Assembly (NCBI GenBank): GCA_023662825.1
Contig: JAMPIH010000005.1
Location: 72,007 to 136,006, forward strand
From: Bacteroides sp.
GTDB taxonomy: Bacteria > Bacteroidota > Bacteroidia > Bacteroidales > P3
Direction: 5' to 3'
Length of the DNA stretch: 64,000 bases
Positions 1,854-64,000 of the stretch are shown here, piece by piece. The notes under the pieces were generated by a model. That model was not told where the DNA came from, searched no databases, and saw nothing but the letters and a program-made list of their open reading frames with translations. Each line of letters begins with the position of its first letter. The first letter of the stretch is position 1. Made by a program: the position numbers and the translations under genes.

Positions 1854-2927
1854 TTATAGTGGCGCTATCTCCCACCAACCGTCCCTTTTTCCGTTCTTTC
1901 GGATAAGGATGCCCCGTTCCACCAACGAAGCTGTTGCACGTTTGACGGTTGCGGCAGATTTTCCGATTTCTTCGGAAATGGCGGCTTGGGTGATCTTGGG
2001 ATTGTTCTTGATGCAGTCAAGTATCGCTAAATCAATCATGGAAAGTTTCAAAGTATCATTTTGATACTTTGAAACGATACTTTGGGTTTCCTTATGGAGA
2101 CTTTGAGGGGATGGCGCCGCATATCTGATATGCATTTCCCTATCCTTCAATTCATTATTTTCTTTGAGAATCAGGTTCCGCATGAATTTCAGCAGAAACC
2201 CCATATCCGCCTTGATTCCCTGCGTGAAGTCGTTGAAGTTGGCCCGGACAAGGGCATCCCGAAAGTAGGCAGACTTCTCTTTAAACAAATCGTTGTTCAC
2301 CTTAAAGCCGAAAGAACGCAAGTATTTGATCAGGAATACCGCCGTTGTACGCGTATTGCCCTCGCTGAACACATGATTCTGCCAGACATCGGAGATGAAT
2401 TTGGCAAGATGAACCAAGGATTCCTCTACCGACAGACGGGCATAGGAAAAAGCCTTTTCCTGTTCAAAATCATATTCCAGATTGGCGCGGAGCATCTCAG
2501 AATTACCATACACCACGCTTTGGCCATCGAGAACCCATTCTTTCTTGGAAATATTATAGGTGCGGATTTTTCCAGCGTTTTTCAGAAGCCCTTCGAACAG
2601 ACGCTTGTGGATATGGAGATACTCCAGCGAAGAGAAATGGAATCCATTCTCCAGCAATATCTTGGAAATACGTCCCGAAACGATGTCCGCCTCCTCGGTA
2701 TCGGCGCCTTGACGCCGTCCGTCCTCCCGCTCGTAGTAACTTTTGATAAGTTGCCCGGCTTCGTCTATGGTGATGTCGTTCTCGATATGCCGGCGTGCCG
2801 TCTCGATAAGGTAGGGCGACACTTTCAGCCCGTCGACGTCTTGCAGGCCGATGGCCGTCTGCCATGCTTGCGCCCGTTCCCTGCGGTTCGGTTCCCCTGC
2901 CTTGATATATTCTTCGAAATCGCCCAT
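1854..2927 (-). CDS. Fic/DOC family protein with a C-terminal winged-helix DNA-binding domain
   Basis: Fic motif HVFSEGNTRTT (HxFx(D/E)GNxR); C-terminal wHTH (ILDCIKNNPKITQAAISEEIGKSAATVKRATASLVERGIL); the track ORF starts at TTG 2954 and the first ATG is at 2927; lower GC than flanking DNA. Confidence 0.8.
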   Translation of the reverse strand: MGDFEEYIKAGEPNRRERAQAWQTAIGLQDVDGLKVSPYLIETARRHIENDITIDEAGQLIKSYYEREDGRRQGADTEEADIVSGRISKILLENGFHFSSLEYLHIHKRLFEGLLKNAGKIRTYNISKKEWVLDGQSVVYGNSEMLRANLEYDFEQEKAFSYARLSVEESLVHLAKFISDVWQNHVFSEGNTRTTAVFLIKYLRSFGFKVNNDLFKEKSAYFRDALVRANFNDFTQGIKADMGFLLKFMRNLILKENNELKDREMHIRYAAPSPQSLHKETQSIVSKYQNDTLKLSMIDLAILDCIKNNPKITQAAISEEIGKSAATVKRATASLVERGILIRKNGKRDGWWEIAPL

Positions 2928-2976
2928 AATGCTACCGGCATCACGCCAAAGCAAAGATACGACAACTCACCGTATC

Positions 2977-5918: not shown

Positions 5919-6422
5919 GATTGACTTTTTTATCGGCTGCAAAATTATCACGAAGCCCCCAATCTCCCCTTATACAGATTCCCGATTGTGTTACCAGAAT
6001 TGCTTTTTATGCGCAAGGTCGCCGCCCCGTACGCGGAAAGCCCGCGGCATTAAAAAAGGCTCACGGGCACGGTGCATATCGTTTTTCCGTGCCACTCAAT
6101 TTTTTCTTCCTGGTTATTGGTGATAACGAGAAGGTTGCAGCAGTGGAGTTCATCGGCGGCTTCGATGAGGGCATCGAGTTCGCGCTTGCGGGTTTTCCCG
6201 GAAGCCATATCGTAACAGACTTGGATAAGTTGTTCAACCTTTGTGTCTTAGGGGCTATATGGTCGATTTTATTCAATAATCACACTGTACTGAATAAAAA
6301 AGTACATATTTTATTCAATACGGAATGTTCGACAGTCTCGAATTTATTTTGTACGATTAATGAAACTACTGCATATTTTAGTTTTGTTTGGTACAACAAA
6401 TAAAATTCACTACCTTCGCCGT

Positions 6423-7634
6423 ATGGAAATCATTTCACGACAGATATACATAGACCATATTCTGAGGTTCCTGAACAAGGGTATGATGATAGCTCTCACC
6501 GGTCAGCGTCGGGTGGGTAAAAGTTATGTGCTTCGGGAACTTGCTGAAATTATCCGTCAGAATAATCCCGATGCCAACATCGTATATATCAACAAGGAGA
6601 AGAAGAAATTCGATTCGATAAAAAACGATTCAGATTTGTCTGCCTATATCGAGGGAAAGTTTCCCGAAGATGGGGATAATTATCTGCTGATAGATGAAGT
6701 GCAGGATATTGAAGGTTTCGAGAATGTATTGAGAAGTCTTAACGCTGATGAGGAGTGTCAGATAGTCGTTACCGGGAGCAATGCAAAGATGCTTTCGTCG
6801 GAGTTGTCAACCTATCTTGGGGGAAGATATATTGACATTCATATCCAGAGCTTGTCTTATCGTGAATTTCTCCGTTTCCATAATCTTGAAGAATCGGCTG
6901 AAAGCCTTGAGAAGTATCTCTCATTTGGAGGTCTTCCGCATCTTTACAGGCTCGGACTTGAAAATGAAGACATGGTTTGGGAATATGTGCAGAACATTTA
7001 CAACACCATAGTGCTGAAAGATGTGGTGCAAAGAGAAGGGCTGCGCAATGTCACATTGTTTGAGAATCTGATGGCGTATGTCAGCGACAATACAGGCCAG
7101 CTTGTTTCGGCCACATCTCTGTCGAAATATCTTAAGGCCCAGAGAGTGGAGCTTACTCCGCTGTCCGCTATCAATTACCTGAAGGCTGCCTCAAACGCTT
7201 ATATTATCAACAAAGTACAAAGGTATGACATCCAGGGCAAGCGGCTGTTGGAGACTAACGATAAATACTACTTTGAAGACCTTGGATTGAGGAATCTGCT
7301 GGTCGGAAGCAACCGTGCAAAAGACATGGAGAAGATAATGGAAAATGCCGTGTATCTTCACTTGAAGAACCTTGGCTATAAAGTTGCCGTCGGAACACTG
7401 CCTAAGGGAGAAATAGACTTTATTGCCGAAAAGGGAGGCGATAAAGTCTACATTCAGGTTGCTTATTTGCTCAACGAGGATTCGACTGTAAAACGCGAGT
7501 TCGGCAATTTGACACAAATTTCCGACAATTATCCCAAATACGTCGTGTCAATGGATCCTATAAGCAAACCGAAGGACTACGACGGAATCATTCATATATC
7601 ATTGCGGACTTTTTTGCTTACTGACTCATTTTAG
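6423..7634 (+). CDS. AAA+ ATPase of the DUF4143 / COG1373 family
   Basis: Walker A GQRRVGKS and Walker B LLIDEVQ; typical Bacteroidales 'ATP-binding protein'; AT-rich gene; possible TAgtTTTG -7 box at 6379-6386 upstream of ATG 6423. Confidence 0.8.
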   Translation: MEIISRQIYIDHILRFLNKGMMIALTGQRRVGKSYVLRELAEIIRQNNPDANIVYINKEKKKFDSIKNDSDLSAYIEGKFPEDGDNYLLIDEVQDIEGFENVLRSLNADEECQIVVTGSNAKMLSSELSTYLGGRYIDIHIQSLSYREFLRFHNLEESAESLEKYLSFGGLPHLYRLGLENEDMVWEYVQNIYNTIVLKDVVQREGLRNVTLFENLMAYVSDNTGQLVSATSLSKYLKAQRVELTPLSAINYLKAASNAYIINKVQRYDIQGKRLLETNDKYYFEDLGLRNLLVGSNRAKDMEKIMENAVYLHLKNLGYKVAVGTLPKGEIDFIAEKGGDKVYIQVAYLLNEDSTVKREFGNLTQISDNYPKYVVSMDPISKPKDYDGIIHISLRTFLLTDSF

Positions 7635-10464: not shown

Positions 10465-11271
10465 ATGGAAGAACGGAAAGATATATTCGTTACCGACAGG
10501 CCCGGCGGGGTTAGCGTGGGGGCGGACGAAGGTTACCTTGCGCATCTGTTCTGTCTGGGCGGCAGCTGCCGCTTTACGTTCAACGGCAAGGATTTTTGCG
10601 TGGAGGCGGGCGACCTTTCGATTGTGCGTAAGCGGAATCTGATAGGGAACGTGCGCTATTCCAAGGATTTTCGCGCCAAGGTGATTTACGCCCGTCCCGG
10701 TTTCCTTGAGTTGTGCACGCCCCAGAGCAACTACGGCATGAAAGGTTCGCTGGCCCTGTTCCTGAATCCGGTCATGCGCCTCTCGCCCGAACAGCAGGCG
10801 GTCTGCCTGCGCGATTTTGCTTTGCTGGAAGCGCGCATCAACGACACCGCCCACCGTTTCTATCGCGAGATGCTGATAAACTCCATGCAGACGGCCATCC
10901 TCGACTTTTTCGATTTCCATGCCCGGATTTACGGCGAGAGCGACGTTTCCACGCAGAACGCCTCCATCATGAACCGTTTCCTTAAGATGTTGGAAGCGGG
11001 CACCTACCGCAAGCACCGCGAGGTGGCCTATTACGCTGACTGCCTGTGCGTAACGCCCAAATACCTCTCGGAAGTGTCGAAAAAGGTGAGCGGTTTCGCG
11101 GCCAATCACTGGATAAACCGCTACACGGCCCTCGATATCGCCCGCTTGCTGCGCGACAAGTCGCTCACCTTCGTAGAGATTTCCGACCTGTTTGGCTTCT
11201 CCTCCCAAGCCTACTTCAGCCGCTACGTGCAGAAGAACTTAGGGATCGCCCCCACCGATTACCGAAAATAG
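10465..11271 (+). CDS. AraC family transcriptional regulator
   Basis: C-terminal AraC HTH (...FSSQAYFSRYVQKNLGIAPTDYRK); TAccTTTG -7-like box at 10433-10440. Confidence 0.8.
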   Translation: MEERKDIFVTDRPGGVSVGADEGYLAHLFCLGGSCRFTFNGKDFCVEAGDLSIVRKRNLIGNVRYSKDFRAKVIYARPGFLELCTPQSNYGMKGSLALFLNPVMRLSPEQQAVCLRDFALLEARINDTAHRFYREMLINSMQTAILDFFDFHARIYGESDVSTQNASIMNRFLKMLEAGTYRKHREVAYYADCLCVTPKYLSEVSKKVSGFAANHWINRYTALDIARLLRDKSLTFVEISDLFGFSSQAYFSRYVQKNLGIAPTDYRK

Positions 11272-11285
11272 AAACACACGATACT

Positions 11286-11609
11286 ATGAACTGGATAATC
11301 CTGATAATAGCGGGCTTGTTCGAGGCCGGATTCGCCTTTTGCCTGGGCAAGATGAAAGAAGTGTCGGGCACCGAATACTATCTGTGGGGCGCGGGCTTTC
11401 TGCTGTGCCTCGCGCTCAGCATGGTGTTGCTGGCCAAGGCGGTGCAGACCCTGCCCATCAGCGTGGCCTATCCCGTGTGGACGGGCATCGGCGCGGTGGG
11501 CACCGTGTTGCTGGGCATTTTCTTCTTCCACGAACCGGTGTCCGTGGCCCGCGTATTCTTTATCGTGCTGCTGATAGGCTCTGTGGTCGGGCTCAAATGC
11601 GTGTCGTAA
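11286..11609 (+). CDS. sugE: SMR family small multidrug/guanidinium exporter (SugE/Gdx-like)
   Basis: 107 aa with four TM segments; the start overlaps the araC-family stop. Confidence 0.8.
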   Translation: MNWIILIIAGLFEAGFAFCLGKMKEVSGTEYYLWGAGFLLCLALSMVLLAKAVQTLPISVAYPVWTGIGAVGTVLLGIFFFHEPVSVARVFFIVLLIGSVVGLKCVS

Positions 11610-11686
11610 AGATTTCTCCCCGGAAACGAAGAGGTGAATTTCTGTAAGAGCATCCCGCGGGTCGGCGGCCAAAATCGGGTCCGGCG

Positions 11687-12718
11687 TTAGAATGGCTCCT
11701 TTTCAAGCAATCGATCCAACTGGGCTTGAAGTTCCTCTCTTTTGGGCAGATAAAGTTGGTATTTTGCTGCAAAAAGTTGATTTGTATTATCTTGCAGCGC
11801 ATATTCCATAAGAAGTTCATCTTTCTTTGCCCCAAGTACAATGCCGATAGGGGGGTTATCGTCCGGTTGGCAAATTTCGGTCTTGAAGTAGTTGATGTAC
11901 AGATTCATTTGCCCAATGTCATTGTGTCTTATTTCTGCCCGTTTAAGGTCTATCAGCACATAACATTTCAGGATGCAATGATAAAACACCAAATCAACCT
12001 TGAAGCATCTGCTCCCTATCTGCATTGTGTATTGTCGTCCGATAAATGCAAAACCGCGTCCCAGCTCCAATAGGAATTGTTCCATATTTGCTTTGAGTGC
12101 GGCCTCCAAGTCACATTCCCTATATCGCTTCCTTGCAGGCAATCCCGTAAATTCCAGCACATAAGGATCATGTATTATATCTTGCGGCGTAAGCACCTGA
12201 TGTCCTTCATTGGCTAAAGCTAAAATACCTTCTTTGTCTGTGCTCAATGCCAACCGTTGAAATAAGGAACTTTTTATCTGTCGTTTAAGTTCACGTACCT
12301 TCCATCCTTCCTGGATGGCTTGCTTAAAGTAGAATTGCATTTCCAATGGGTCATCGCATTTCAGTAATTCGAAATAGTGACTCCAAGACAATTTGTGAGA
12401 CAGTGTTTCACAAATTGGAAATGCTACATATAACTTACGCATATAGTTTAGGTTGGAGCGGCTGAAGCCTTTTCCTCGTGCTAATGTCAGATCCTTTGAT
12501 AGGTTGACCAATAGTTGCTTGCCGTACTCGGCTCTGGCAGCTCCTTTCTGTTCGAACTCTACGATGTATTGTCCCGTTTTCCAATTGGCTTCAAGGAGGT
12601 TGGTATTTACAGCGGTTATGGCTTTTTCCTTTGCTGTATCCCATAAGCCGATAATGCGGTCAACAAGTTCATCATATCCTTTGCCGTTATTATGCGTTGT
12701 CGTTATGTCTTGACCCAT
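11687..12718 (-). CDS. DUF1016 (YhcG-like) PDDEXK nuclease-domain protein, paralog 1
   Basis: YhcG_N-like N-terminus and a PDDEXK-like C-terminus (VDLVFY..YVLIDLK); AT-rich; conserved leader with GAGGAGG just upstream of ATG 12718; an alternative upstream ATG at 12766. Confidence 0.75.
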   Translation of the reverse strand: MGQDITTTHNNGKGYDELVDRIIGLWDTAKEKAITAVNTNLLEANWKTGQYIVEFEQKGAARAEYGKQLLVNLSKDLTLARGKGFSRSNLNYMRKLYVAFPICETLSHKLSWSHYFELLKCDDPLEMQFYFKQAIQEGWKVRELKRQIKSSLFQRLALSTDKEGILALANEGHQVLTPQDIIHDPYVLEFTGLPARKRYRECDLEAALKANMEQFLLELGRGFAFIGRQYTMQIGSRCFKVDLVFYHCILKCYVLIDLKRAEIRHNDIGQMNLYINYFKTEICQPDDNPPIGIVLGAKKDELLMEYALQDNTNQLFAAKYQLYLPKREELQAQLDRLLEKEPF

Positions 12719-12814
12719 TTCAGTCCTCCTCAAATTCTCGGTGTTGTCGGTAATTTCAATTTCCATAAGTTTTTCGGGGCCATGGAAACAAAAGGGTTCG
12801 GCAAGGCCGGAAGT

Positions 12815-14593
12815 TCATCGTTTAACGATCTTGTGGCGGACAGTGGCGCCATTCCCGTCTGTGGCCTCCAATACGTAAACGCCGGCGGGAAGTTGGCTCA
12901 TGTCGATTTCCCTTGCACCGCCCCGTACGCGCAGTCGCTCGTTTCCCTGTAGATCCAACAGACGCAAACCAAGAACGTTCGCCGCGTCCTCTCCTCCATC
13001 TTGCACCTTAATGTAGAGGGTAGTCCCACAAGGATTGGGATAAGCAGAGAGCACCGTCCGGGGCAGGCGCGTTGTGTTGGAGAGCGTGTCGCCGCCCGGA
13101 ATTTCCTCCCGGACGACATATCGGGCGGTGGCCACCGCCGAGTTGATCCAGCCGTCCTTCATTGCCATAGCCTTGATTACAAGAGAGTCCTGGATTGCGA
13201 TGCCGTCGGTGTAGAGCGCCGAGTTCTCGGTGGGCGTGCTGCCGTCGAGGGTATAGCGGATTTGTGCGTTCTCGGTGGCGCAGGAGATTCGAATCCTTGT
13301 TCCCTTTTCCACCGTGTCTTTTTTCGGTTCGAATACCGGTATGTCGCAAGTGTCGGGGAGGGCGGGAAGTTCGACGGAAACGTGATAGGAAACGCTTACA
13401 GGCGTGTTTTCCTGTCGGAAAGGCGCAAAATAGACAGGCGTATGGCAATGGGTCAGGATACCGCTGTTTTGTAATTGAACCCTATAGTTCCCGCTTCTTT
13501 TGAAAATCAGGAAGCCTTCGGAGAAGGTGTAGTCGGTTCCCTCGCGCAAGGTGTCCTTGCTCTCTTCATCATATACGTTGCATTGCGTGGCGGTATTTTC
13601 AAAATAGGCTTCCGGCCGCAAATCGAGCGTGTCGATGCGTATCGGGTCAAGATACAGGTGCTGGTTGGAAGTGTAGTGCCAGAAGGCGGTGTCCAGGTGG
13701 GCGAAAGAGGCATCGAACCATTGCGTCACGGCAAGGTTCCGGGCTAAGGAAAGGGCGTTGTTTGCGGCATACAGGCATTGCAGCCGGGAGCAGTTGAAGA
13801 TGCCTAAGGTGTCCAGTCTGTTGTCGGCGCAGTGAAGGTATTCCAAGCGAGGGCAATTGTCCACTTCAAGGTAAGACAGATTGTTGTTGAAACATTCCAG
13901 CCATTGCAGGGAAGTGTCGTTGCTCACGTTCAGGGTTTTGAGGCGGTTGTTGCCGCAGTAGAGCCCTTGCAGTTTGGGGAGGCTGTCGGCGGTCAGCGAA
14001 TCCAGCCGGTTGTTGTAGCAGAAGATTTGCTGCAGTTTTTTGTTTCCTCTCAAATCCAAGGAACTCAGTTGGTTGTTGTAGCAATCCAACCAATAGAGTT
14101 GCGGGTTTCGGTTCAGGTTCAGCTGTTCCAGCAAGTTGAACGAACAGTTCAGTTCCTGTAAGTCGCTGTTGGCGCTCACATCCAGTACGGAAAGCCGGTT
14201 TTGGGCGCAGTTCAGTTCCTGCAGGGCAAGGTTGCGGCTTACATCCAAGGCGGTAAGTTGGTTGCCCGGACAATGCAAGGTTTGCAAGGTCTCGATTTCG
14301 CTTACATCCAGGCTTTTGATACCGGAAATGCGCAGGGCGGTGAGCTTTCCTCCTGAAGCATAAACTTTGCACGGGGTTTGGTCGGGCAGGGCCGACAGTT
14401 CCAGCGGTATGTCGGAAAGCACATGTGTCTGCGGGGCAGAGTCTCCGCATTCCAATACGACTGTCGTGTTCTCATCGCCGCGCAGGCTCAATTGGGCCGA
14501 TTCGGAGGTCTCAAAACGTATCGTGTCGGCGGTCTGACCGAAAACGGGCGAAAAACATGCGAAGACAAGGCCTAAGAATCCATAGGGTTTCAT
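12815..14593 (-). CDS. Leucine-rich-repeat surface protein with a chitobiase/beta-hexosaminidase C-terminal-like domain and a T9SS C-terminal sorting domain
   Basis: Signal peptide; ~12 LRRs (LQELNC..NRLSVLDVS); C-terminal Por_Secre_tail-like beta-sandwich. Confidence 0.75.
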   Translation of the reverse strand: MKPYGFLGLVFACFSPVFGQTADTIRFETSESAQLSLRGDENTTVVLECGDSAPQTHVLSDIPLELSALPDQTPCKVYASGGKLTALRISGIKSLDVSEIETLQTLHCPGNQLTALDVSRNLALQELNCAQNRLSVLDVSANSDLQELNCSFNLLEQLNLNRNPQLYWLDCYNNQLSSLDLRGNKKLQQIFCYNNRLDSLTADSLPKLQGLYCGNNRLKTLNVSNDTSLQWLECFNNNLSYLEVDNCPRLEYLHCADNRLDTLGIFNCSRLQCLYAANNALSLARNLAVTQWFDASFAHLDTAFWHYTSNQHLYLDPIRIDTLDLRPEAYFENTATQCNVYDEESKDTLREGTDYTFSEGFLIFKRSGNYRVQLQNSGILTHCHTPVYFAPFRQENTPVSVSYHVSVELPALPDTCDIPVFEPKKDTVEKGTRIRISCATENAQIRYTLDGSTPTENSALYTDGIAIQDSLVIKAMAMKDGWINSAVATARYVVREEIPGGDTLSNTTRLPRTVLSAYPNPCGTTLYIKVQDGGEDAANVLGLRLLDLQGNERLRVRGGAREIDMSQLPAGVYVLEATDGNGATVRHKIVKR

Positions 14594-14719
14594 ATCGGGA
14601 AGGTTTAAGGGTGAACAATGCTTTTCTTAACGCAGCGTAAAAGTAGTAAAATGCACTCAATTCCGCTGTTTATATAGGGAAACGAAATATGGAGCAGATC
14701 TTTTACCGCAGGATGATTA

Positions 14720-15814
14720 CTATTCGTTTTCTTCCAGTTTCTTTAATTCTTCATTTTCTTCAAACTCTTCAATCCATTCCTTCACCTTGGCTTGCAATAA
14801 AGCCTTGTTGGGGAGATAAAGCTGATAGGCAGAAGCATAGATATTGGCCTCCTTAGGCAAGGTGAGTTCCACAAGTGCATCGTTCTTCTCCTTGCACAGC
14901 AGAATGCCGATTGTCGGCTTTTCAAAATCTTGTTTGACATAGCGGTCATAATAGTTGACATACATCTGCATCTGTCCAAGATCTTGGTGAGTAAGTTTGT
15001 CTATCTTCAAATCTATAAGTACATAGCATTGCAGCAAACGATTATAGAACACTAAGTCAACAAAGAAATGCTGTTCATCGAATGTGAACCGTTTCTGCCT
15101 CGCTTCAAAAAGGAACCCTTTGCCGAGTTCTAATAGAAATTGCTGCATCTTGTTGATGATGGCATTCTCTAATTTCGATTCCGAGTAGGCGGCATCGGAT
15201 TTCAGACCGAGAAACTCCAATGTGATGGGATTCTTGATGATGTCCGATGGTTTTTCGATGGTCTGTCCCTCTCGTGCCAACCGCATTACTTCGGCTTTGT
15301 TACGGCTCAATGCAAGGCGCTCGTAGAGGCTACTGCCTATCTGACGGCTGAGCTGTCGTACGCTCCATTGTTGCTCGGCACATTCTATTTCATAGAAACT
15401 GCGGGCATCGGGATTCTCGATGCGCATAAGAATAAGATAATGAGACCACGAAAGGGAGAACGCGGGAATCTGTTCTATGTAGGAGGTGTTTTCAATTTGA
15501 TGAACACCGTTTATCAAATTGGCATAGACCAAATAAAACTGTCGGATTTGACGCAAATAGGGATACGACCATCCGTCCCCAAACCTATCCGTCAGACGCT
15601 TGGATAATTCTTGCAATACTGCTTTTCCGTATTCGGCTCTCGTGGCACCTTTCTGTTCATATTCCACTATGTATTGTCCGATATGATACTTGGTATAGAC
15701 CTCTGCCACGTTGACGGCGGTGGACACACGTTTTCTAGCCTGTTCTACAAGGTCTGCTACCTTTTGAAACAGGGTGTTCATATCATGGATGTTTGCGGCG
15801 ATGTCTTGTCCCAT
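14720..15814 (-). CDS. DUF1016 (YhcG-like) PDDEXK nuclease-domain protein, paralog 2
   Basis: ~40% identical to paralog 1; the same conserved leader precedes ATG 15814; the longer track ORF (to 16030) has no nearby start codon. Confidence 0.75.
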   Translation of the reverse strand: MGQDIAANIHDMNTLFQKVADLVEQARKRVSTAVNVAEVYTKYHIGQYIVEYEQKGATRAEYGKAVLQELSKRLTDRFGDGWSYPYLRQIRQFYLVYANLINGVHQIENTSYIEQIPAFSLSWSHYLILMRIENPDARSFYEIECAEQQWSVRQLSRQIGSSLYERLALSRNKAEVMRLAREGQTIEKPSDIIKNPITLEFLGLKSDAAYSESKLENAIINKMQQFLLELGKGFLFEARQKRFTFDEQHFFVDLVFYNRLLQCYVLIDLKIDKLTHQDLGQMQMYVNYYDRYVKQDFEKPTIGILLCKEKNDALVELTLPKEANIYASAYQLYLPNKALLQAKVKEWIEEFEENEELKKLEENE

Positions 15815-15980
15815 TTCAGTCCTCCTCAATTTCTCGATATTATCAATAATTTCAACTTCAAAGGTAGTTTTTATTTGGTTCGGATACAAAGGAGGATTGG
15901 ATTCCCCAAAAATGGCATTTATGCCAACTTTTTGGAATGCTCGGCTTATGCGTATCTTCGCGTGGTAAAGAAAGCCTCCT

Positions 15981-16547
15981 ATGCAAACCCCGAACCCCGA
16001 CAAACCCCGCTGCTTCTGGGCGAACCCCAAGAATCCCCTTTATATTGAATATCACGACAAGGAATGGGGCGTGCCCGAACACGACGACCGAAAATTGTTC
16101 GAAATGCTGATTCTCGAGGGCTTTCAGGCCGGTCTGTCGTGGGAGTGCGTGCTCAACAAGCGCGAGGCCTTCCGCCGTGTCTTTGCCGGTTTCGACCCCG
16201 GGAAAGTGGCCGCGTTCACCGAAGCGCAACAGGAAAGACTGATGGCCGAGCCCGGCATCATCCGCAACCGCCTCAAGATAAAGGCCGCCACCATTAACGC
16301 ACAGATTTTCTTGAAAATCCAGGCCGAGTTCGGTTCGTTCGACGCCTATCTGCAAGGCTTCACGCAAGGCAAGACACTTTACGAAACGGGCAAGGCTAGC
16401 AACGCCCTCTCGGACGCCCTTTCCAGAGACCTGAGGAAGCGCGGCATGAAATTCGTGGGAACCACCATCGTCTACGCCTTCCTGCAAGCCGTCGGCGCAA
16501 TAAATTCGCACGAAAAGGATTGCTTTCTGTACTGCGGCAGGAACTGA
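15981..16547 (+). CDS. tag: DNA-3-methyladenine glycosylase I
   Basis: Strong Tag family match (EYHDKEWGVP, FEMLILEGFQAGLSW). Confidence 0.9.
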   Translation: MQTPNPDKPRCFWANPKNPLYIEYHDKEWGVPEHDDRKLFEMLILEGFQAGLSWECVLNKREAFRRVFAGFDPGKVAAFTEAQQERLMAEPGIIRNRLKIKAATINAQIFLKIQAEFGSFDAYLQGFTQGKTLYETGKASNALSDALSRDLRKRGMKFVGTTIVYAFLQAVGAINSHEKDCFLYCGRN

Positions 16548-28230: not shown

Positions 28231-30201
28231 TTATCGTACAATCACCTTGTGGCTCTTGTTCCCGGCCTTTACGATATACAGGCCGCTGTGCCGTACCGGA
28301 ATGGCGGTGGCGTGGCCGTTGTAGAGGCATTGACCGAGCGTGTTATAAACCTGCACGTCACGGTATTCGGAAAGATGGATAACGCGGTCTCTGGCGTACA
28401 CACGGAAGCCGTCTTCTTTCCGGCTTTCGTTGCCTACATTATCCGGTTCTTTCTCGAAGTTGGCCGTCAGTTCCATATCTTCAGTCACTTCAAAGGTGTA
28501 AACCGCTTTTGTGCTGAACACGGAGCCGTCCATTTCCGTCCAGTTCACGAAGCGGTAGCCCTCGTTGGGCGTGGCGGTGATGGTTGCATTCTCGCCTTGG
28601 CTATAGGTGCCACTTCCTGCAATAGTGGCCACACCCCAGTCGGTATTGTTGCTCTGTACCGATATCGATATATTGAACCTGTCAATGATGACAAGGGTCT
28701 TTGATATTCGGACAGCCGAGAAGTAGTTGTTGTTTCCGTTTTGACTCGCCTTCACCGTTATGGTTCCTTTTTTCTGACAATCGAGAACGGCCACGTCTCC
28801 TGCATAGTAAATATCGGCTATGCCTTCCGGAGAGATTTCATATTCAACCGGAAGCCCGGAAGATGTTGAGGCGGTAAGTTCTATTTGATCATCCACATTA
28901 ACATCCCGAAAGCTTTGATTCCATGATAAAGTCTGGTTCGCTTTGGTGATGGTCAGGGTGCCGCTGTCGTAGCTGAATCGATAGTTGGTCGCCTCGCCAC
29001 CTGAAACACAGATGGGGTATTCCCCGACATCGGAAGTCTGCGTGGCTTCACACTGCACTGTCGGCAATGTATTTAGCGCCGAATAAGGGCGGTCATTGTT
29101 GACAAATCCCGAATACTCTATCTCGAATGCAGGATTTTTCGTGCCATAAGTTCGGGTATAGTCGGATACGGAAACCTGCAACAGCCGTTTGGATACGGTA
29201 AGCGTGCCGGGATGGTATTCAAAAGAATAGTTTTGCGCCTGCCCTCCGGATATTGTTATCTCATAATTTCCTACCGTCGATTGTTTATTCGCATGACTTG
29301 CGGCGACCGGCAACTGCTGTAAATCTGCTATCCCGTCATTATTCAAAAAACCCGAATACGAAAGTTCGAAAATAGGATTTTCTTCTCCGTATTCACGAGA
29401 GATGTCCTTTACCGAAACCGATAGCGTTTGCGGTTTGATTTCGTAATAGACGGCCACTTCCGCCGTATAAGTAAATCCTTCATATTCAAAGGTGATGGGG
29501 ATTAGTGCACGATGTGTACCCGCTTCTTTCTGCATTTGGGGTTCCAGCATGCTTATAATCTTACATCCCTCTACATTGCATTTCAATCCGGGAAATGCCG
29601 GTTCCTGTCCTGTATAGGCAAAAATATCCTGTTCAAATGAGAGTATCGGAACAAGCTTGCGTTGTTCCGTGTTTTCAAGTGAATAAGCCTTTATGTCAGC
29701 CACATAGAGGGTTGCCGCTTCAGAACCTTGAGACTGCCACTTTGACGGCGGTAGGAGGGAAAGATACATGATATATCGCAAACGATCACAGCCGGAAAAA
29801 ACCGAGTTGCCTAATCCTCTAAGTTTGGGAGGAAATACTACAGAAATAAGATTTCCACACCCGAGAAATGATAGGTTTTCCACTATCTCTAATGAATCAG
29901 GAAGTCTTATTTTTTTTATAGAGGAGGAGTAGGAAAAGGCACCGTGGCTACGACCACTTCCATGATCATAATATCTTAATCTGTTGACTATATAAGGAAT
30001 GCCTTCATACATAATTGAAGAAGGGATTACATACACGGAATCAGTGTAACCGGAAATACTGGCCTTAGGCGTAATGACATCTGCATGTACCCCATCATCA
30101 ATACAGTAAGTTATTTTATCAATCTGTACGACTACAGCAAAGTCCTTAGTTATGCTTGCGGCTGCAATAAAGGCAATCAGAATCAAAAAGATTTTTTTCA
30201 T
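28231..30201 (-). CDS. Cell-surface protein with BspA-type leucine-rich repeats, MBG repeats and a T9SS C-terminal sorting domain
   Basis: Signal peptide MKKIFLILIAFIAAAS; repeated YG(E/T)xNPxFE...GNYxI (MBG) modules; C-terminal Por tail; lower GC. Confidence 0.7.
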   Translation of the reverse strand: MKKIFLILIAFIAAASITKDFAVVVQIDKITYCIDDGVHADVITPKASISGYTDSVYVIPSSIMYEGIPYIVNRLRYYDHGSGRSHGAFSYSSSIKKIRLPDSLEIVENLSFLGCGNLISVVFPPKLRGLGNSVFSGCDRLRYIMYLSLLPPSKWQSQGSEAATLYVADIKAYSLENTEQRKLVPILSFEQDIFAYTGQEPAFPGLKCNVEGCKIISMLEPQMQKEAGTHRALIPITFEYEGFTYTAEVAVYYEIKPQTLSVSVKDISREYGEENPIFELSYSGFLNNDGIADLQQLPVAASHANKQSTVGNYEITISGGQAQNYSFEYHPGTLTVSKRLLQVSVSDYTRTYGTKNPAFEIEYSGFVNNDRPYSALNTLPTVQCEATQTSDVGEYPICVSGGEATNYRFSYDSGTLTITKANQTLSWNQSFRDVNVDDQIELTASTSSGLPVEYEISPEGIADIYYAGDVAVLDCQKKGTITVKASQNGNNNYFSAVRISKTLVIIDRFNISISVQSNNTDWGVATIAGSGTYSQGENATITATPNEGYRFVNWTEMDGSVFSTKAVYTFEVTEDMELTANFEKEPDNVGNESRKEDGFRVYARDRVIHLSEYRDVQVYNTLGQCLYNGHATAIPVRHSGLYIVKAGNKSHKVIVR

Positions 30202-30821
30202 TGTATTTTATTTTTAGAATTTTCATCGCAAAACGCTTCTATTTCGCAAAGCGTTTTATAGACTAACTCCAGTATTGCGTGGAGAAAATTTGCGGAGGAT
30301 ATGCTATATCCATCATAAACTTCGTCTAATCCTGATTCGCCATACTTTTCCAAACAAGCTTGAATCCGTTCTTTTCGTTCCTTGGAAAGACTCCCATGAA
30401 CGAAATAGTTGCGGAGTTCCCTAATTGATTCATTTATCAATTCTATGTCTGGATTGCAGGGGAACCCGAGGGCTAATATGGTTTTCAATGGCTTTTGGCC
30501 ACTTACACTTATGGTGCGTTCGTAAAATCTTATAATTCTGCAAAGCCCCGTTTCCCAAAAACAATAGATGGCGCAGAATATTGATTGATTGAATAATGCG
30601 TATTGACTGGTTATGTCGAGCTGCGCGTTGTATAAAGGATTACAGAGAGAACTGATTTCCTCTACATCAATCGATGCATCGTTGTTGATGGAGCCTATCT
30701 CATCTTCGAGGTTTTTGATCGCTGCGCAAATCAGGGAGGATTGTTCCTCAATGATTTGTTTATAGGCCGCATGCTCAAAATCAATCCCTGCACGTATGGA
30801 GGTGCGCCCTTTGGCTATCAT
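30198..30821 (-). CDS. Hypothetical protein with a C-terminal Rx4H motif (possible HEPN-like domain)
   Basis: AT-rich ORF; RELRNYFVH motif; stop overlaps (ATGA) the start of the surface-protein gene; the track ORF begins at TTG 30875 and the first ATG is at 30821. Confidence 0.4.
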   Translation of the reverse strand: MIAKGRTSIRAGIDFEHAAYKQIIEEQSSLICAAIKNLEDEIGSINNDASIDVEEISSLCNPLYNAQLDITSQYALFNQSIFCAIYCFWETGLCRIIRFYERTISVSGQKPLKTILALGFPCNPDIELINESIRELRNYFVHGSLSKERKERIQACLEKYGESGLDEVYDGYSISSANFLHAILELVYKTLCEIEAFCDENSKNKIQ

Positions 30822-30928
30822 TTTGTTGGTTTTTAGTGTATTTGAGTTCGTGTGTCTGGCTTCAATGTGTAGCAAATATAATTTAATTATCCGTAACTAA
30901 AAATCAATACTCTTGATTAAATGTAAGA

Positions 30929-60940: not shown

Positions 60941-61789
60941 TTAAAGTGTTGGCATCAAGCATAAAATCGATACCGGCATTGTGAGGGCAAAGATACAGTT
61001 TTTTCTCCATTCGTTAGCATCTTTGTCTCGGAGGTTGGCTTTGCCACAGAACATTCCATATTCCAATATGGGAATCTTGGGAACTATTTTTTCTAATAAC
61101 CTCGAGTTTTCTGAGTTGAATACACTGTCTTCGTGGGTTACGTCGGGAGCGAAATTCAGAATTATGGCTATCAGGCTATCCGCTAAATCGAGATATGTAG
61201 GTTCTTCTTCCGAGCAGACAAGAACCCTCCATTCCTGTTCGTAAGCCCAATCTTGAGTTTTTGTGAAAAAATATTCTTTTTCGTATTTCTGTAGAGACTC
61301 TTTGATGTTTTCATCTGTAAAAATGTTCTCGTTAAAATCTGGAGTATATTGAACAGACCGCCTTGCCATTTCGGGTTTTAATTGCTGTAGCAACTTGGCT
61401 TTGTCAAAAACAAGGCAAACGCCGCACCCTCTATCGGCATAGTGTCCCCACATGGCAGGAATATCGTATCCGGCTTTTTGGGGGGTGTCTTGGGTAAAAC
61501 TGAGTTGTTTGTATTTTGACAGTTCTTTTTCAAACTTATCCTCGATGTTTGTTTCGGATAGCCTCTCAGGATAACATTTCCTACGATATACTTCATTGAT
61601 ATCGTTCATTTTCTTTAGGGCTCCGAACCGTAATTTATTGGAAGATAAAATCAAACAGGCGGCCTGAACGGAAGTGTAATGGTATAGTTTTTCCACTCGC
61701 TTAAAGGCTTCGCGTGTTTCACGAGTATTGTCATCTTCTGAAGGGTGAGGATGGCAATGTTTCAATTTTGGAGTATCAGGGTTGCACAT
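60941..61789 (-). CDS. DUF2971 family protein
   Basis: AT-rich; family-typical motifs (LYHYTS, MWGHYADRGCGVCLVF, EWR); the family assignment is from recollection. Confidence 0.55.
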   Translation of the reverse strand: MCNPDTPKLKHCHPHPSEDDNTRETREAFKRVEKLYHYTSVQAACLILSSNKLRFGALKKMNDINEVYRRKCYPERLSETNIEDKFEKELSKYKQLSFTQDTPQKAGYDIPAMWGHYADRGCGVCLVFDKAKLLQQLKPEMARRSVQYTPDFNENIFTDENIKESLQKYEKEYFFTKTQDWAYEQEWRVLVCSEEEPTYLDLADSLIAIILNFAPDVTHEDSVFNSENSRLLEKIVPKIPILEYGMFCGKANLRDKDANEWRKNCIFALTMPVSILCLMPTL

Positions 61790-62176: not shown

Positions 62177-62661
62177 AGTGAAATCTTTTTAAGCAGGGCG
62201 ATGGCCTTTTCTGAGCCGAAGAAATATTGTACGGCACGGTCTGCGTTAAAGCGAAGTTCTTTAATCAAGTCTTCTATGCTGAGAATCCCCATCAAAAAAC
62301 GCCGTATCTGCACGCCCACCGTATCGTTGGCGATAGGCCCCACCACTATATCATAGGGGTGGGGCGATTCTCCGGTTTTATTCTTTCTGTTTTCCAATAC
62401 AAATTGAGCCCACTCAACACTGTAATCTTCGAAGATTTTGACGTTTAAGCCATTCGGCGCGTGCAAACAAGTTTCGTCAAATTCAAAAGCCGAAACGGTA
62501 GCCGTACCCGTAGCCATACGCGAAGTGGTGCGTTCCGCCATCTTTTGGGCTTGCAACAAGTTGTCGTTCAGGTAAAAGCCAATACCAAAATCTTTTCCTT
62601 TTTTAGAAAAAGAAAGGTCGATGCTTTTAATATCGAGGTTTGACCCGTGGTATAGAATCAT
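62173..62661 (-). CDS. DUF3990 domain protein (N-terminal MILYHGS with an H-G-S motif)
   Basis: 162 aa; family-typical N-terminus; TAATG overlap with the upstream DUF3791 gene. Confidence 0.55.
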   Translation of the reverse strand: MILYHGSNLDIKSIDLSFSKKGKDFGIGFYLNDNLLQAQKMAERTTSRMATGTATVSAFEFDETCLHAPNGLNVKIFEDYSVEWAQFVLENRKNKTGESPHPYDIVVGPIANDTVGVQIRRFLMGILSIEDLIKELRFNADRAVQYFFGSEKAIALLKKISL

Positions 62662-62888
62662 TACTGTATGCGCCCTCCATTGCGCAGGCAGATGGCCTGA
62701 AGGTCATCCACGGCATCGTCAATCGACAAGGTGTGTTCGGCCTCGTAACAGTTCAGGAGAAAGTGGATGCCGCTGTAGCGACGCAGGTAGGCGTAAGCCT
62801 GTGCCATCACCAAATTGTATCTTTCGGCAAAAGCGCTTACACAACAAACAACGTATTCTATTATGTTGAAATCTTTCTGCGTCATCAT
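62661..62888 (-). CDS. DUF3791 domain protein (copy b)
   Basis: 75 aa; overlaps the DUF3990 start. Confidence 0.5.
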   Translation of the reverse strand: MMTQKDFNIIEYVVCCVSAFAERYNLVMAQAYAYLRRYSGIHFLLNCYEAEHTLSIDDAVDDLQAICLRNGGRIQ

Positions 62889-63535: not shown

Positions 63536-64000
63536 TTACTGGCTTTCGGTTGTATTGTTTAAATTGTCCTCAATCCCTTCGATTGTTGGAAGTGCCGATG
63601 CGACATCATTAAATAACTTTTCCGTTTCGTACTGGGCAATACCCATAGGTTGTGTTATTCCTCTCAGTGCAAATTCAGCTTTCTTATTGCTTTTATTTCT
63701 ACATAGCAGCAGACCGATGGTGGGATTATCCTCAGGAGATTTTACATATTCATCTACTGCTGAAATGTAAAAGTTGAGTTTGCTTACAAACTCAGGGATG
63801 AACTCAACCGCTTTTAACTCTATAGCAACATAACAGTGTAGCTTGACATGATACATTAAAATGTCGATGTAATAGTCTTCGCCATCAACTACGACATTAT
63901 ATTGGCGGCCAATGTAAGAGAAGCCTTTGCCCATCTCCAACAAAAAGTCGGTAACCTTGTCGGCAAGATGATTTTCTATGTCTCTTTCATGCTGTAAGGC
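63536..64000 (-). CDS. DUF1016 (YhcG-like) PDDEXK nuclease-domain protein, paralog 3 (partial; the 5' part runs off the window end)
   Basis: C-terminal half aligns with paralogs 1 and 2 (LLEMGKGFSYIGRQY...YVAIELK); the reading frame stays open to position 64000. Confidence 0.7.
   Translation of the reverse strand, partial: ALQHERDIENHLADKVTDFLLEMGKGFSYIGRQYNVVVDGEDYYIDILMYHVKLHCYVAIELKAVEFIPEFVSKLNFYISAVDEYVKSPEDNPTIGLLLCRNKSNKKAEFALRGITQPMGIAQYETEKLFNDVASALPTIEGIEDNLNNTTESQ

What the first reader, a model, noticed from the sequence alone, without database searches (positions are those of the whole stretch)
11687..16030. Two diverged DUF1016/YhcG PDDEXK paralogs bracket an LRR-T9SS surface-protein gene and share a conserved 5' leader with an atypical GAGGAGG element; a third paralog sits at the window end
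Paralog 1 (11687-12718) and paralog 2 (14720-15814) are only ~40% identical at the protein level. The ~55 nt immediately upstream of their ATGs are nearly identical (gaaattgaaattaccgacaacaccgagaatttgaggaggactgaaATGgg vs gaagttgaaattattgataatatcgagaaattgaggaggactgaaATGgg). This leader contains a Shine-Dalgarno-like GAGGAGG 8 nt before the ATG, which is unusual for Bacteroidetes, where SD use is rare. In the leader the substitutions look 3rd-position-like, yet in paralog 2 it has no start codon. That pattern suggests a conserved cis-regulatory RNA or translation-control element rather than an N-terminal extension. All three copies are AT-rich islets in a GC-rich backbone. Three PDDEXK-domain paralogs in 64 kb, each in an islet, points to a selfish or defence-type gene family rather than housekeeping nucleases.
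Basis: partly seen in the sequence, partly recalled or inferred. Interest (0 to 1): 0.7.

Follow-up and report, generated by a model that had tools for sequence, protein, structure and literature searches.

The report
Orphan restriction-linked nuclease genes sharing leader
Two diverged copies of a restriction-system-associated nuclease gene share a 59-base stretch in front of their start codons that is most likely a leftover of the methylase gene that precedes such genes in intact restriction operons, not a regulatory RNA, so the finding is real but fairly ordinary.

Summary
Two intact DUF1016/YhcG genes lie on the minus strand (11687-12718 and 14720-15814, 42% identical). They bracket an LRR/T9SS gene and share a 59-nt block (-48 to +11, 86% identical) containing GAGGAGG. 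A third, truncated copy runs off the window end. All three are AT-rich.

The regulatory-RNA reading is not supported. The block has no Rfam match and no stable or shared fold. It is absent upstream of about 100 other DUF1016 genes, including 86-87% identical homologs.

In close homologs the gene sits between hsdM and hsdS of Type I restriction-modification operons. There HsdM ends ...LLANIEED*, encoded by ...ATAGAGGAGGACTAA just before ATGGGCAAAGACATC. In the window the +2 frame reads GAG GAG GAC TGA A ATG. So GAGGAGG is best read as fossil Glu-Glu codons of hsdM. Support for this is moderate and comes only from position-restricted tests.

A syntenic genome has one DUF1016 gene with the same leader. 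Its flanks have dS 0.14-0.25, but its coding sequence has dS about 1.6. The leader therefore belongs to a conserved flank behind which alleles were swapped and, here, stacked.

The proteins are under strong purifying selection and match the PADLOC candidate PDC-S02. Interest is low to moderate.

The parts
11687..12718 (-). Par1: an intact DUF1016_N + YhcG_C (PD-(D/E)xK) gene of 343 aa starting at the inner ATG (MGQDITT...). GC 0.42.
   Evidence: Pfam E 3.9e-44 and 5e-58. PADLOC PDC-S02 E 1.5e-132. Closest homologs are 88-91% identical in amino acids, with synonymous sites saturated.
12719..12766 (-). Par1 leader, 48 nt. It ends ...GAG GAG GAC TGA A before the ATG. GAGGAGG is at 12725-12731. 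The in-frame ATG at 12766 is probably not used.
   Evidence: Similarity to par2 stops at about -48.
12705..12763 (-). Copy 1 of the 59-nt shared block (-45 to +14 in the repeat finder's register).
   Evidence: the repeat finder family D3, 86% identity. Identity between the coding sequences collapses after about codon 5.
12815..14593 (-). LRR / Fn3-associated / T9SS-sorted surface protein gene, 592 aa. GC 0.54, like the host backbone.
   Evidence: Pfam LRR_4, CHB_HEX_C_1, Fn3_assoc and Por_Secre_tail. No homolog lies next to DUF1016 in about 145 other loci.
14720..15814 (-). Par2: an intact DUF1016_N + YhcG_C gene of 364 aa. It is identical to the NCBI protein P0121. GC 0.44.
   Evidence: Pfam. 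P0121 at 100% identity. It is 82-86% identical in amino acids to alleles embedded in Type I R-M operons (77% by tblastn over residues 1-345 for the B. fragilis allele).
15815..15862 (-). Par2 leader, 48 nt. It has the same junction: GAG GAG GAC TGA A ATG. GAGGAGG is at 15821-15827.
   Evidence: It is 88% identical to the leader of the syntenic ortholog L116.
15801..15859 (-). Copy 2 of the 59-nt shared block.
   Evidence: the repeat finder family D3.
15859..15890 (-). Bacteroides-type promoter consensus, TTTG-N20-TACCTTTG. It abuts the 5' edge of the par2 leader. The implied 5' UTR is about 40 nt.
   Evidence: One of only 3 matches in 64 kb, against 0.59 expected. The -7 box is conserved in L116. 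Par1 has no equivalent box. This is motif evidence only.
11607..14747 (.). A 3.1-kb segment present here but absent from the syntenic genome L116. It holds the last ~28 nt and stop codon of par2 (homology with L116 ends about 28 nt before the par2 stop), the LRR gene, the second leader copy, par1 and 77 nt downstream.
   Evidence: blastn: L116 1-6103 matches window 20770-14748 at 90%. L116 6122-7263 matches window 11606-10465 at 94%.
63560..64000 (-). Third DUF1016 paralog. Only the C-terminal 146 aa are in the window. It keeps D...ELK. GC 0.40. Its start and leader lie outside the window.
   Evidence: It is 36% identical to par1 and par2. It matches other PDC-S02 sub-models best.

Best explanation
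The shared 'leader' is a lineage-restricted junction segment, not an RNA element. It is most likely the fossil 3' end of a Type I R-M methyltransferase gene (hsdM).

In intact Bacteroides operons the gene order is hsdR-hsdM-DUF1016-hsdS, followed by an integrase and spare hsdS genes. There hsdM ends 1-5 nt before the DUF1016 start codon. GAGGAGGAC-TGA are then the last Glu-Glu-Asp-stop codons of HsdM, read in the +2 frame relative to DUF1016. Upstream stop codons show that this frame is now dead.

Par1 and par2 are two old allele lineages (42% identical) of this R-M-embedded nuclease. They now exist as orphans. The 59-nt block belongs to the conserved flank of a chromosomal DUF1016 slot between tag and an SMR gene. 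Behind that flank, coding sequences have been replaced by horizontal transfer and recombination. In this genome a second allele, together with an LRR gene, was added in tandem.

Today the block serves passively as the 5' UTR and start region. Par2 has its own Bacteroides-type promoter at the block's 5' edge. Par1 has none and is probably read through from the LRR gene.

What is shown:
- the repeat and its sharp boundaries;
- the lack of RNA structure and of wider conservation;
- the R-M context of homologs;
- hsdM and hsdS relics next to other orphans;
- synteny with a one-copy genome;
- the contrast between conserved flank and diverged coding sequence;
- purifying selection on the proteins.

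What is inferred:
- that the window's leader itself descends from hsdM;
- the order of the recombination events;
- the promoter and the read-through transcription.
For: 1. R-M context. The B. fragilis ortholog of par2 (P0166) and P0136 lie between hsdM and hsdS in 14 contigs, and again in L129-L132. DUF1016 inside Type I R-M loci is also in the literature (PMC3424549, PMC9881135).

2. Junction geometry:
- L020: ...LLANIEED*, GAG GAG GAC TAA ACTTT ATG GGC AAA GAC ATC.
- L013: GAG GAG GAT TAA A ATG.
- L012: GAA GAG AAT TAA A ATG.
- Window: GAG GAG GAC TGA A ATG GG(T/A) CAA GAC AT.

3. Relics next to other orphans.
- L012 (91% identical to par1) has 57 aa of HsdM upstream and 70 aa of HsdS downstream, each 74% identical to the B. 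fragilis proteins.
- L117-120 have a truncated hsdM and an hsdS stub.
- A profile built from intact hsdM 3' ends hits the upstream DNA of orphans L013 (E 1.4e-7), L154 (0.0025) and L110 (0.007).

4. Position-restricted tests. The window leaders score 21-28 against the L020 hsdM end. With the stringent gap penalties none of 78 unrelated DUF1016 upstream regions reaches that score; with lenient penalties 1 of 78 does for par1 and L116. Between 0 and 8 of 1000 shuffles reach it.

5. No RNA element. No Rfam hit. Folding z-scores are about 0 to +0.45. No conservation in broad samples.

6. Flank versus coding sequence. L116 is syntenic. dS is 0.14 for RuvA, 0.25 for Tag and 1.6 for DUF1016, while the leader is 88% identical. 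Par2 is closer to the R-M-embedded L121 allele (82% nt) than to the syntenic L116 allele (77% nt).

7. Three-way leader comparison. There are 14 variable sites in 60. Par1-par2 divergence is about 0.17, of the same order as the dS of the flanks (sequences; partial tally of 45 nt).

8. Purifying selection. dN/dS is 0.05-0.10.
Against: - The direct sequence link between the window leader and hsdM rests on about 16-19 nt (ATWGAGGAGGACTRAA).
- The hsdM 3' profile gives only E 1.4-3.4 for par1, par2 and L116.
- A leader profile searched against 895 kb of fetched loci does not recover hsdM ends. A whole-window blastn gives only a non-significant 10-mer.
- The alignment needs a ~9-nt insertion (cgagaaWtt) shared by par1, par2 and L116.
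- Weak similarity of the region further upstream of par2 to L156 (score 27 against a null maximum of 25) hints at a more complex history.
- No transcript data exist, so the TSS and read-through are unverified.
- Which of par1 or par2 was resident, and how the LRR gene arrived, cannot be decided.
Confidence: 0.62

Rival explanations
1. The leader is simply native intergenic DNA of the tag-DUF1016 locus. It was copied once inside this lineage, by tandem duplication or gene conversion of about 59 nt onto par1. It has no hsdM ancestry, and the resemblance to HsdM's ...IEED* end is coincidence.
For: - Unrestricted searches do not connect the leader with hsdM ends.
- Par1 and par2 uniquely share CAA (Gln) at codon 3, where L116 and all other homologs have Lys. 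This fits an intragenomic exchange.
- The block has sharp boundaries.
Against: - The position-restricted match to the B. fragilis-type hsdM end exceeds all 78 unrelated upstream regions under stringent gap penalties (77-78 of 78 under lenient ones) and at least 99% of shuffles.
- The stop-plus-1-nt-plus-ATG geometry is identical to the proven relics L012 and L013.
- Nine of eleven distinct close-homolog loci have hsdM or a relic directly upstream, which gives a high prior.
- Par1's leader is not nearer to par2 than to L116: 10 versus 11 differences in 60 nt.
Confidence: 0.2
2. The leader is kept by selection as a translation-control element. One version is a genuine Shine-Dalgarno site used by a ribosome subpopulation, such as bS21-free ribosomes. 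The other is a small cis-acting RNA.
For: - A perfect GAGGAGG lies 6 nt from the ATG in three leaders (par1, par2, L116).
- The only strongly SD-led gene known in Flavobacterium (rpsU) is regulated through bS21-free ribosomes (PMC9976891, PMC13000453).
- The region is unstructured, as start regions usually are.
Against: - At homologous hsdM-DUF1016 junctions the motif is GAAGAGAAT, AAAGAAGAT or GAAGAATAT. The SD is therefore not conserved.
- Orphans 86-87% identical to par1 or par2 (L125, L154, L110) lack it.
- Leader divergence between orthologs (12%) equals neutral expectation from the flanking dS of 0.14-0.25.
- There is no Rfam hit, no stable fold and no shared fold.
- Bacteroidia ribosomes are SD-blind (PMC7797042).
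Confidence: 0.08
3. The leader is coding: an N-terminal extension of the nuclease (MEIEITDNTENLRRTE- in par1).
For: - Frame 0 is open through the leader in par1, par2 and L116.
- Par1 has an in-frame ATG at 12766.
Against: - Par2 and L116 have no ATG in that stretch.
- Codon changes are 2 synonymous against 4 non-synonymous, then 0:5 and 1:4.
- None of 240 close homologs has the extension, and their N-termini start at the inner Met.
- In L012 frame 0 is closed 4 codons upstream of the ATG.
- The DUF1016_N domain begins only at residue 23 of the short form.
Confidence: 0.03

Closest known systems
DUF1016/YhcG genes inserted between hsdM and hsdS of phase-variable Type I R-M loci in Bacteroides (for example the CP046428.1 locus in PMC9881135, and the B. 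fragilis loci L020-L029 here)
   Same: - Same protein family and sub-clade: par2 is 82-86% identical in amino acids to the operon-embedded alleles (77% by tblastn over residues 1-345 for the B. fragilis allele).
- Same first codons (MGK/QDI...).
- The same GAGGAGGAC-stop sequence lies directly before the start codon.
   Different: - The window has no hsdR, hsdM, hsdS or shufflon integrase.
- The genes are orphans in a housekeeping neighbourhood (tag, ruvA, sprA, SMR).
- Only about 48 nt of the presumed hsdM end remain, and that frame now contains stop codons.
PADLOC phage-defence candidate PDC-S02 (a single-gene candidate)
   Same: Par1, par2 and the third fragment match PDC-S02 models at E 1e-132, 1e-140 and 1e-62.
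   Different: PDC-S02 is a candidate defined by association. No defence activity was tested here, and no experimental test of it was looked for in the ten papers the search listed as mentioning it.
Decayed R-M loci that retain DUF1016 with gene stubs
   Same: An intact DUF1016 gene is kept under purifying selection while hsdM is truncated to a 3' stub directly upstream. The junction spacing is the same.
   Different: In those loci the stub is long enough to be statistically identified, and in L012 and L117 an hsdS stub is also present. The window's stub is shorter, carries a 9-nt insertion and has no hsdS stub downstream.
The SD-containing rpsU leader of Flavobacteriia (bS21 autoregulation)
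   Same: A strong SD-like sequence upstream of a start codon in a Bacteroidia genome.
   Different: The rpsU SD is conserved across species and functionally tested (PMC9976891). Here the motif is not conserved at homologous junctions and has a simpler origin as codons.

Membership tests
DUF1016 / YhcG family (Pfam PF17761 + PF06250) | Both the N-terminal DUF1016_N domain and the C-terminal YhcG_C domain score above the gathering cut-off. | tested here: met
   Par1 scores 150.5 and 195.8 bits. Par2 scores 129.5 and 177.9 bits. The cut-offs are 32.8 and 32.5. The third fragment scores 174.8 bits on YhcG_C.
PD-(D/E)xK nuclease superfamily | The catalytic D ... (D/E)-x-K motif sits on the beta-strands of an alpha-beta-beta-beta-alpha-beta core. 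| tested here: met
   D242, D257 and K259 (par1 numbering) are invariant in 12 sequences. The upstream E218 and Q270 are also invariant. Par1 and par2 read VDLVFY...LIDLK. The third copy reads IDILMY...AIELK.
PD-(D/E)xK nuclease superfamily | The three-dimensional fold matches solved PD-(D/E)xK nucleases. | tested here: inconclusive
   The AF2 model has low confidence (pLDDT 61.5, pTM 0.40), although residues 201-295 have alpha-beta-beta-beta-alpha-beta topology. The top Foldseek PDB hits are NucS/EndoMS, Card1/Can2 and a Cas4-like protein, but the best E is only 1.5e-3. No solved relative is detectable by sequence.
Type I R-M operon-embedded DUF1016 | The gene lies between hsdM and hsdS, with hsdR nearby. 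| tested here: not met
   tblastn with B. fragilis HsdR, HsdM and HsdS finds nothing in the 64-kb window. The neighbours are tag, ruvA, sprA, SMR and the LRR gene.
Type I R-M operon-embedded DUF1016 | A remnant of the hsdM 3' end lies directly upstream, showing descent from such an operon. | tested here: inconclusive
   Position-restricted alignment to the L020 hsdM end scores 21-28. No more than 1 of 78 null regions and 0-8 of 1000 shuffles reach that. The junction geometry is identical. However, the profile E-values are 1.4-3.4 and the unrestricted search finds no hit.
PADLOC PDC-S02 defence candidate | Match to the PDC-S02 HMMs. | tested here: met
   E 1.5e-132 (par1), 1.8e-140 (par2) and 1.2e-62 (third copy). 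Anti-phage activity cannot be tested with these tools.
Structured cis-regulatory RNA (riboswitch or leader) | A known family match, or a stable conserved secondary structure. | tested here: not met
   No Rfam match at E <= 1 in 11000-16500. Minimum free energies are no better than shuffles (z +0.03 to +0.45), and the folds differ in par1, par2 and L116.
Structured cis-regulatory RNA (riboswitch or leader) | Conservation upstream of orthologs and paralogs across genomes. | tested here: not met
   The leader is present only in par1, par2 and the syntenic L116. Only its core appears in L013 and in the L020-type hsdM ends. It is absent in 78 metagenomic loci, about 20 viral-contig loci and the close homologs L125, L154 and L110. 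The 19-mer and 20-mer cores gave only chance SD hits in genome and viral collections.
Shine-Dalgarno-led start site | An SD motif 5-9 nt upstream of the start codon that is used by the ribosome. | not testable with these tools
   The motif and its spacing are present. Actual use cannot be tested. Published work says Bacteroidia ribosomes sequester the anti-SD (PMC7797042, PMC9976891).
Bacteroides-type promoter (-33 TTTG / -7 TAnnTTTG) | Both motifs present with a 19-21 nt spacer upstream of the gene. | tested here: met
   Par2 has TTTG-N20-TACCTTTG at 15859-15890 on the minus strand. This is one of 3 matches against 0.59 expected. Par1 does not have it. Activity was not tested.

The most novel reading that the evidence does not exclude
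The hsdM-derived leader, together with the conserved first codons MG(K/Q)DI, acts as a homology 'handle'. Incoming Type I R-M DNA could use it to swap or stack DUF1016 nuclease alleles at a fixed chromosomal slot. That would be a recombinase-free cassette system diversifying a candidate defence nuclease in Bacteroidales. In this view the window captures a stacked, two-allele intermediate. A still more exotic reading is not excluded but is unlikely: the perfect SD makes these genes translatable mainly by bS21-free ribosomes.
Probability: 0.2. Interest if true: 0.55.

Novelty: new member of a known kind. Interest (0 to 1): 0.3.

Why it matters
This is mainly a cautionary result. A short, strikingly conserved 'leader' with an SD-like motif in an SD-blind phylum turns out to be a flank or fossil of a neighbouring gene rather than a riboregulator.

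There is a modest positive yield:
- Orphan DUF1016 (PDC-S02) genes in Bacteroidales are traceable to Type I R-M operons.
- They stay under strong purifying selection (dN/dS <= 0.1) after the R-M genes are lost, which argues that the nuclease has a function independent of the R-M complex.
- At one chromosomal slot the allele has been replaced (dS 1.6 against 0.14-0.25 in the flanks) and here duplicated in tandem. This is the pattern expected for defence genes under diversifying turnover.

Tried and rejected
- Exact-pattern scans with the leader core in genome contigs and viral contigs returned only chance SD+ATG sites in SD-using organisms, or nothing.
- The look-up of encoding contigs with the window's own par1 (both start choices) and with P0121 found no record. 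The source contig itself could therefore not be extended, and the 5' end of the third paralog stayed out of reach.
- nhmmer and blastn of hsdM 3' ends against the whole window gave nothing significant. The leader profile against all fetched loci also gave nothing significant. The relic claim therefore rests on position-restricted tests.
- I looked for an hsdS stub downstream of par1 and par2 and found none.
- I looked for homology between par1 and par2 upstream of -48 and found none.
- A motif shared by par2/L116 and L125-L128 (TTGGCATAAATG), and similarity of par2's far upstream region to L156, were only marginal. I did not build on them.
- The sigma-70 promoter scan found nothing. It does not cover Bacteroides promoters.
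- The AF2 model from a 12-sequence alignment was low confidence. The Foldseek result is only indicative. Deeper alignments could not be submitted, because locus translations are not accepted.
- The N-terminal extension hypothesis was considered and rejected.
- A site-specific recombinase or shufflon explanation was considered and rejected: there is no integrase homolog in the window.

Full report
OBSERVATION

The region 11687-16030 carries three co-directional genes on the minus strand.
- Par2 (14720-15814, 364 aa) and par1 (11687-12718, 343 aa) each have DUF1016_N and YhcG_C domains far above the Pfam cut-offs. They are 42% identical.
- Between them lies an LRR / Fn3-associated / Por_Secre_tail gene (12815-14593).
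- A 59-nt direct repeat (12705-12763 and 15801-15859, 86% identical) spans -48 to +11 of both nuclease genes.
- Its 20-nt core occurs exactly twice in 64 kb, against 0.01 expected.
- A third YhcG_C fragment runs off the window end (63560-64000, minus strand).
- GC content is 0.42, 0.44 and 0.40 for the three copies, against 0.54-0.56 for neighbouring genes.

- The genes are on the minus strand.
- GAGGAGG ends 6 nt before the ATG.
- Par1 has an in-frame ATG at 12766.
- The substitutions are not biased towards third positions or synonymous changes.
- GAGGAGG as such is not enriched in the window (7 found, 6.3 expected).

IS IT AN RNA ELEMENT OR A CODING EXTENSION?

Neither reading holds.
- Rfam finds nothing at E <= 1.
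- The 82-nt start regions of par1, par2 and three homologs fold no better than shuffles (z +0.03 to +0.45). They adopt different folds.
- In frame 0 the three available leaders (par1, par2, syntenic L116) differ mostly by non-synonymous changes.
- None of 240 close homologs has such an N-terminus.
- NCBI starts par2 at the inner ATG (P0121).
- In an unbiased sample of 80 metagenomic and 25 viral-contig DUF1016 loci the upstream regions are unrelated to the leader.
- Even homologs 86-87% identical to par1 (L125) or par2 (L154, L110) lack it.

WHERE THE LEADER COMES FROM

The B. fragilis ortholog of par2 (P0166) and P0136 lie between hsdM and hsdS in Type I R-M operons that also carry an integrase and inverted spare hsdS genes. 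L129-L132 show the same arrangement. This association is already in the literature (PMC3424549, PMC9881135).

In those operons HsdM ends ...AELQKLLANIEED*. The DNA reads ...AATATAGAGGAGGACTAAactttATGGGCAAAGACATC.

The junctions line up as follows:
- L020 (intact operon): GAG GAG GAC TAA ACTTT ATG GGC.
- L121 (intact operon): GAA GAG AAT TAA GTT ATG.
- L012 (57-aa HsdM relic): GAA GAG AAT TAA A ATG GGA.
- L013 (short relic): GAG GAG GAT TAA A ATG GAA.
- Window par1, par2 and L116: GAG GAG GAC TGA A ATG GG(T/A).

So GAGGAGG reads as the Glu-Glu codons of HsdM's C-terminus in the +2 frame. In the window that frame is interrupted by stop codons further upstream.

Orphans with clear relics are common in this clade:
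- L012 has both an HsdM stub upstream and an HsdS stub downstream, each 74% identical to B. fragilis.
- L117-120 keep a truncated hsdM and an hsdS stub.
- A profile of intact hsdM 3' ends detects relics upstream of L013 (E 1.4e-7), L154 (0.0025) and L110 (0.007).

For the window's own leader the statistical link is weaker.
- Position-restricted alignments to the L020 hsdM end score 21-28. With the stringent gap penalties no unrelated DUF1016 upstream region out of 78 reaches that; with lenient penalties 1 of 78 does for par1 and L116. Between 0 and 8 of 1000 shuffles do.
- The profile E-values are only 1.4-3.4.
- Unrestricted searches do not connect the two.
- The alignment needs a 9-nt insertion shared by par1, par2 and L116.

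I therefore rate the hsdM-relic origin as probable, not proven.

WHY TWO 42%-IDENTICAL GENES SHARE IT

L116 comes from an NCBI MAG (GCA_023667785.1). It is syntenic with the window in the order sprA-ruvA-tag-[leader-DUF1016]-SMR-araC.
- DNA identity is 90-94% on both sides.
- L116 has a single, par2-type gene.
- The window carries an extra 3.1 kb (11607-14747) holding the LRR gene, a second leader copy and par1.

Between the two genomes the divergence differs sharply by region:
- dS is 0.14 for ruvA and 0.25 for tag.
- dS is about 1.6 for the DUF1016 coding sequence (77% nt identity), with mosaic patches of 90-95% identity.
- The leader and promoter region stays 83-88% identical.

Par2 is in fact closer to the R-M-embedded allele of L121 (82% nt) than to its positional ortholog. 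The coding sequence at this slot has therefore been replaced by recombination, while the leader stayed with the flank.

The three leaders differ at 14 of 60 sites. Seven changes are private to par1, 4 to L116 and 3 to par2. Par1-par2 divergence is thus about 0.17, of the same order as the flanking dS and far younger than the split between the coding sequences.

Similarity between par1 and par2 begins abruptly at about -48 and collapses after codon 5. The simplest reading is this: par1 is a second allele lineage joined to the same locus-type leader and stacked in tandem. The exact path cannot be decided. Two options remain open:
- insertion of LRR-leader-par1 downstream of par2;
- single-crossover integration of a leader-par2-LRR molecule at a resident leader-par1.

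The shared Gln codon at position 3 hints at some intragenomic exchange.

HOW IT WORKS NOW (INFERRED)

- A full Bacteroides-type promoter consensus (TTTG-N20-TACCTTTG, 15859-15890 on the minus strand) abuts the par2 leader. It is one of 3 matches in the window against 0.59 expected. Its -7 box is conserved in L116. It implies a 5' UTR of about 40 nt that is essentially the shared block.
- Par1 lacks the box. No terminator-like site separates it from the LRR gene, so read-through is likely.
- Because Bacteroidia ribosomes are reported to be SD-blind (PMC7797042, PMC9976891, PMC13000453), and the motif is not conserved at homologous junctions, GAGGAGG is probably incidental.

THE PROTEINS

- The catalytic D...(D/E)xK residues are invariant.
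- A low-confidence AF2 model shows the alpha-beta-beta-beta-alpha-beta core.
- The best Foldseek PDB hits are PD-(D/E)xK nucleases: NucS/EndoMS, Can2/Card1 and a Cas4-like protein. The best E is 1.5e-3.
- No solved relative exists by sequence.
- All three copies match the PADLOC candidate PDC-S02.
- dN/dS is 0.05-0.10, with synonymous sites saturated even among proteins 83-90% identical. The orphans are therefore maintained by selection without R-M partners. No hsdR, hsdM, hsdS or shufflon integrase is in the window.
- The LRR gene is not a conserved neighbour of DUF1016: it is absent from about 145 other loci.

VERDICT

The 'conserved cis-regulatory RNA / atypical SD element' part is not.

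The shared leader is a lineage-restricted junction and flank segment, probably a fossil hsdM 3' end, carried along through allele replacement and tandem stacking of an R-M-derived nuclease gene. It is a new instance of known kinds of things, of low to moderate interest.

Noticed in passing
window 11607-14747 versus L116 6103-6122: Relative to a syntenic MAG (GCA_023667785.1), the window has a 3.1-kb insertion holding the LRR/T9SS gene, a leader copy and par1. No flanking target duplication was seen at the junctions.
   Followed up: partly
par2 versus L116, positions +530 to +650 of the coding sequence (window about 15165-15285): The two positional orthologs are mosaic. A patch of about 120 nt is 90-95% identical inside a gene that is otherwise 70-80% identical. 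This suggests recombination within the gene.
   Followed up: partly
L020-L029 and L121-L124 (about 7200-11300 in L020): The hsdS region downstream of DUF1016 differs in arrangement and orientation between samples that carry identical hsdR, hsdM and DUF1016 genes. An integrase and inverted spare hsdS copies are present. This is a classic phase-variable hsdS shufflon captured in different states.
   Followed up: no
window 15913-15926 (both strands); L116 4885; L125 2469: A small palindrome plus T-run, TGGCATAAATGCCA-TTTTT, lies upstream of the par2 promoter and is terminator-like on both strands. The 12-mer TTGGCATAAATG also occurs upstream of the par1-type orphans L125-L128. Its significance is marginal.
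   Followed up: partly
L034 659-2996; L054 366-2509: Two metagenomic loci carry two diverged DUF1016 genes directly in tandem (30-34% identical). Stacking of alleles is therefore not unique to this window.
   Followed up: no
L117 2592-3788 (protein P0130): The gene caller gave this homolog a 19-aa N-terminal extension (MLPWPNLKGCLRTLKNIEC-). It is just frame 0 read through the hsdM 3' end, so it is an annotation artefact of the same junction.
   Followed up: yes
window 6360-7634 (+), 1854-2954 (-), 60941-61789 (-), 62182-62888 (-), 28231-30875 (-): There are other AT-rich single-gene islets in the GC-rich backbone: an AAA_14/DUF4143 ATPase, a Fic + wHTH protein, a DUF2971 protein, a DUF3990/DUF3791 pair, and a BspA-type LRR/MBG surface protein with an unannotated 225-aa neighbour.
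   Followed up: partly
window 15008-15038 (-): A second full match to the Bacteroides promoter consensus lies inside the par2 coding sequence, about 290 nt before its stop. It might drive the downstream LRR gene.
   Followed up: no
whole window; L116: NCBI labels the source MAG and its relative 'Bacteroides sp.'. However, the backbone GC of about 0.55 and the presence of sprA and a Por_Secre_tail cargo gene suggest another Bacteroidales genus. The DUF1016 genes have a Bacteroides-like GC of 0.42-0.44.
   Followed up: no
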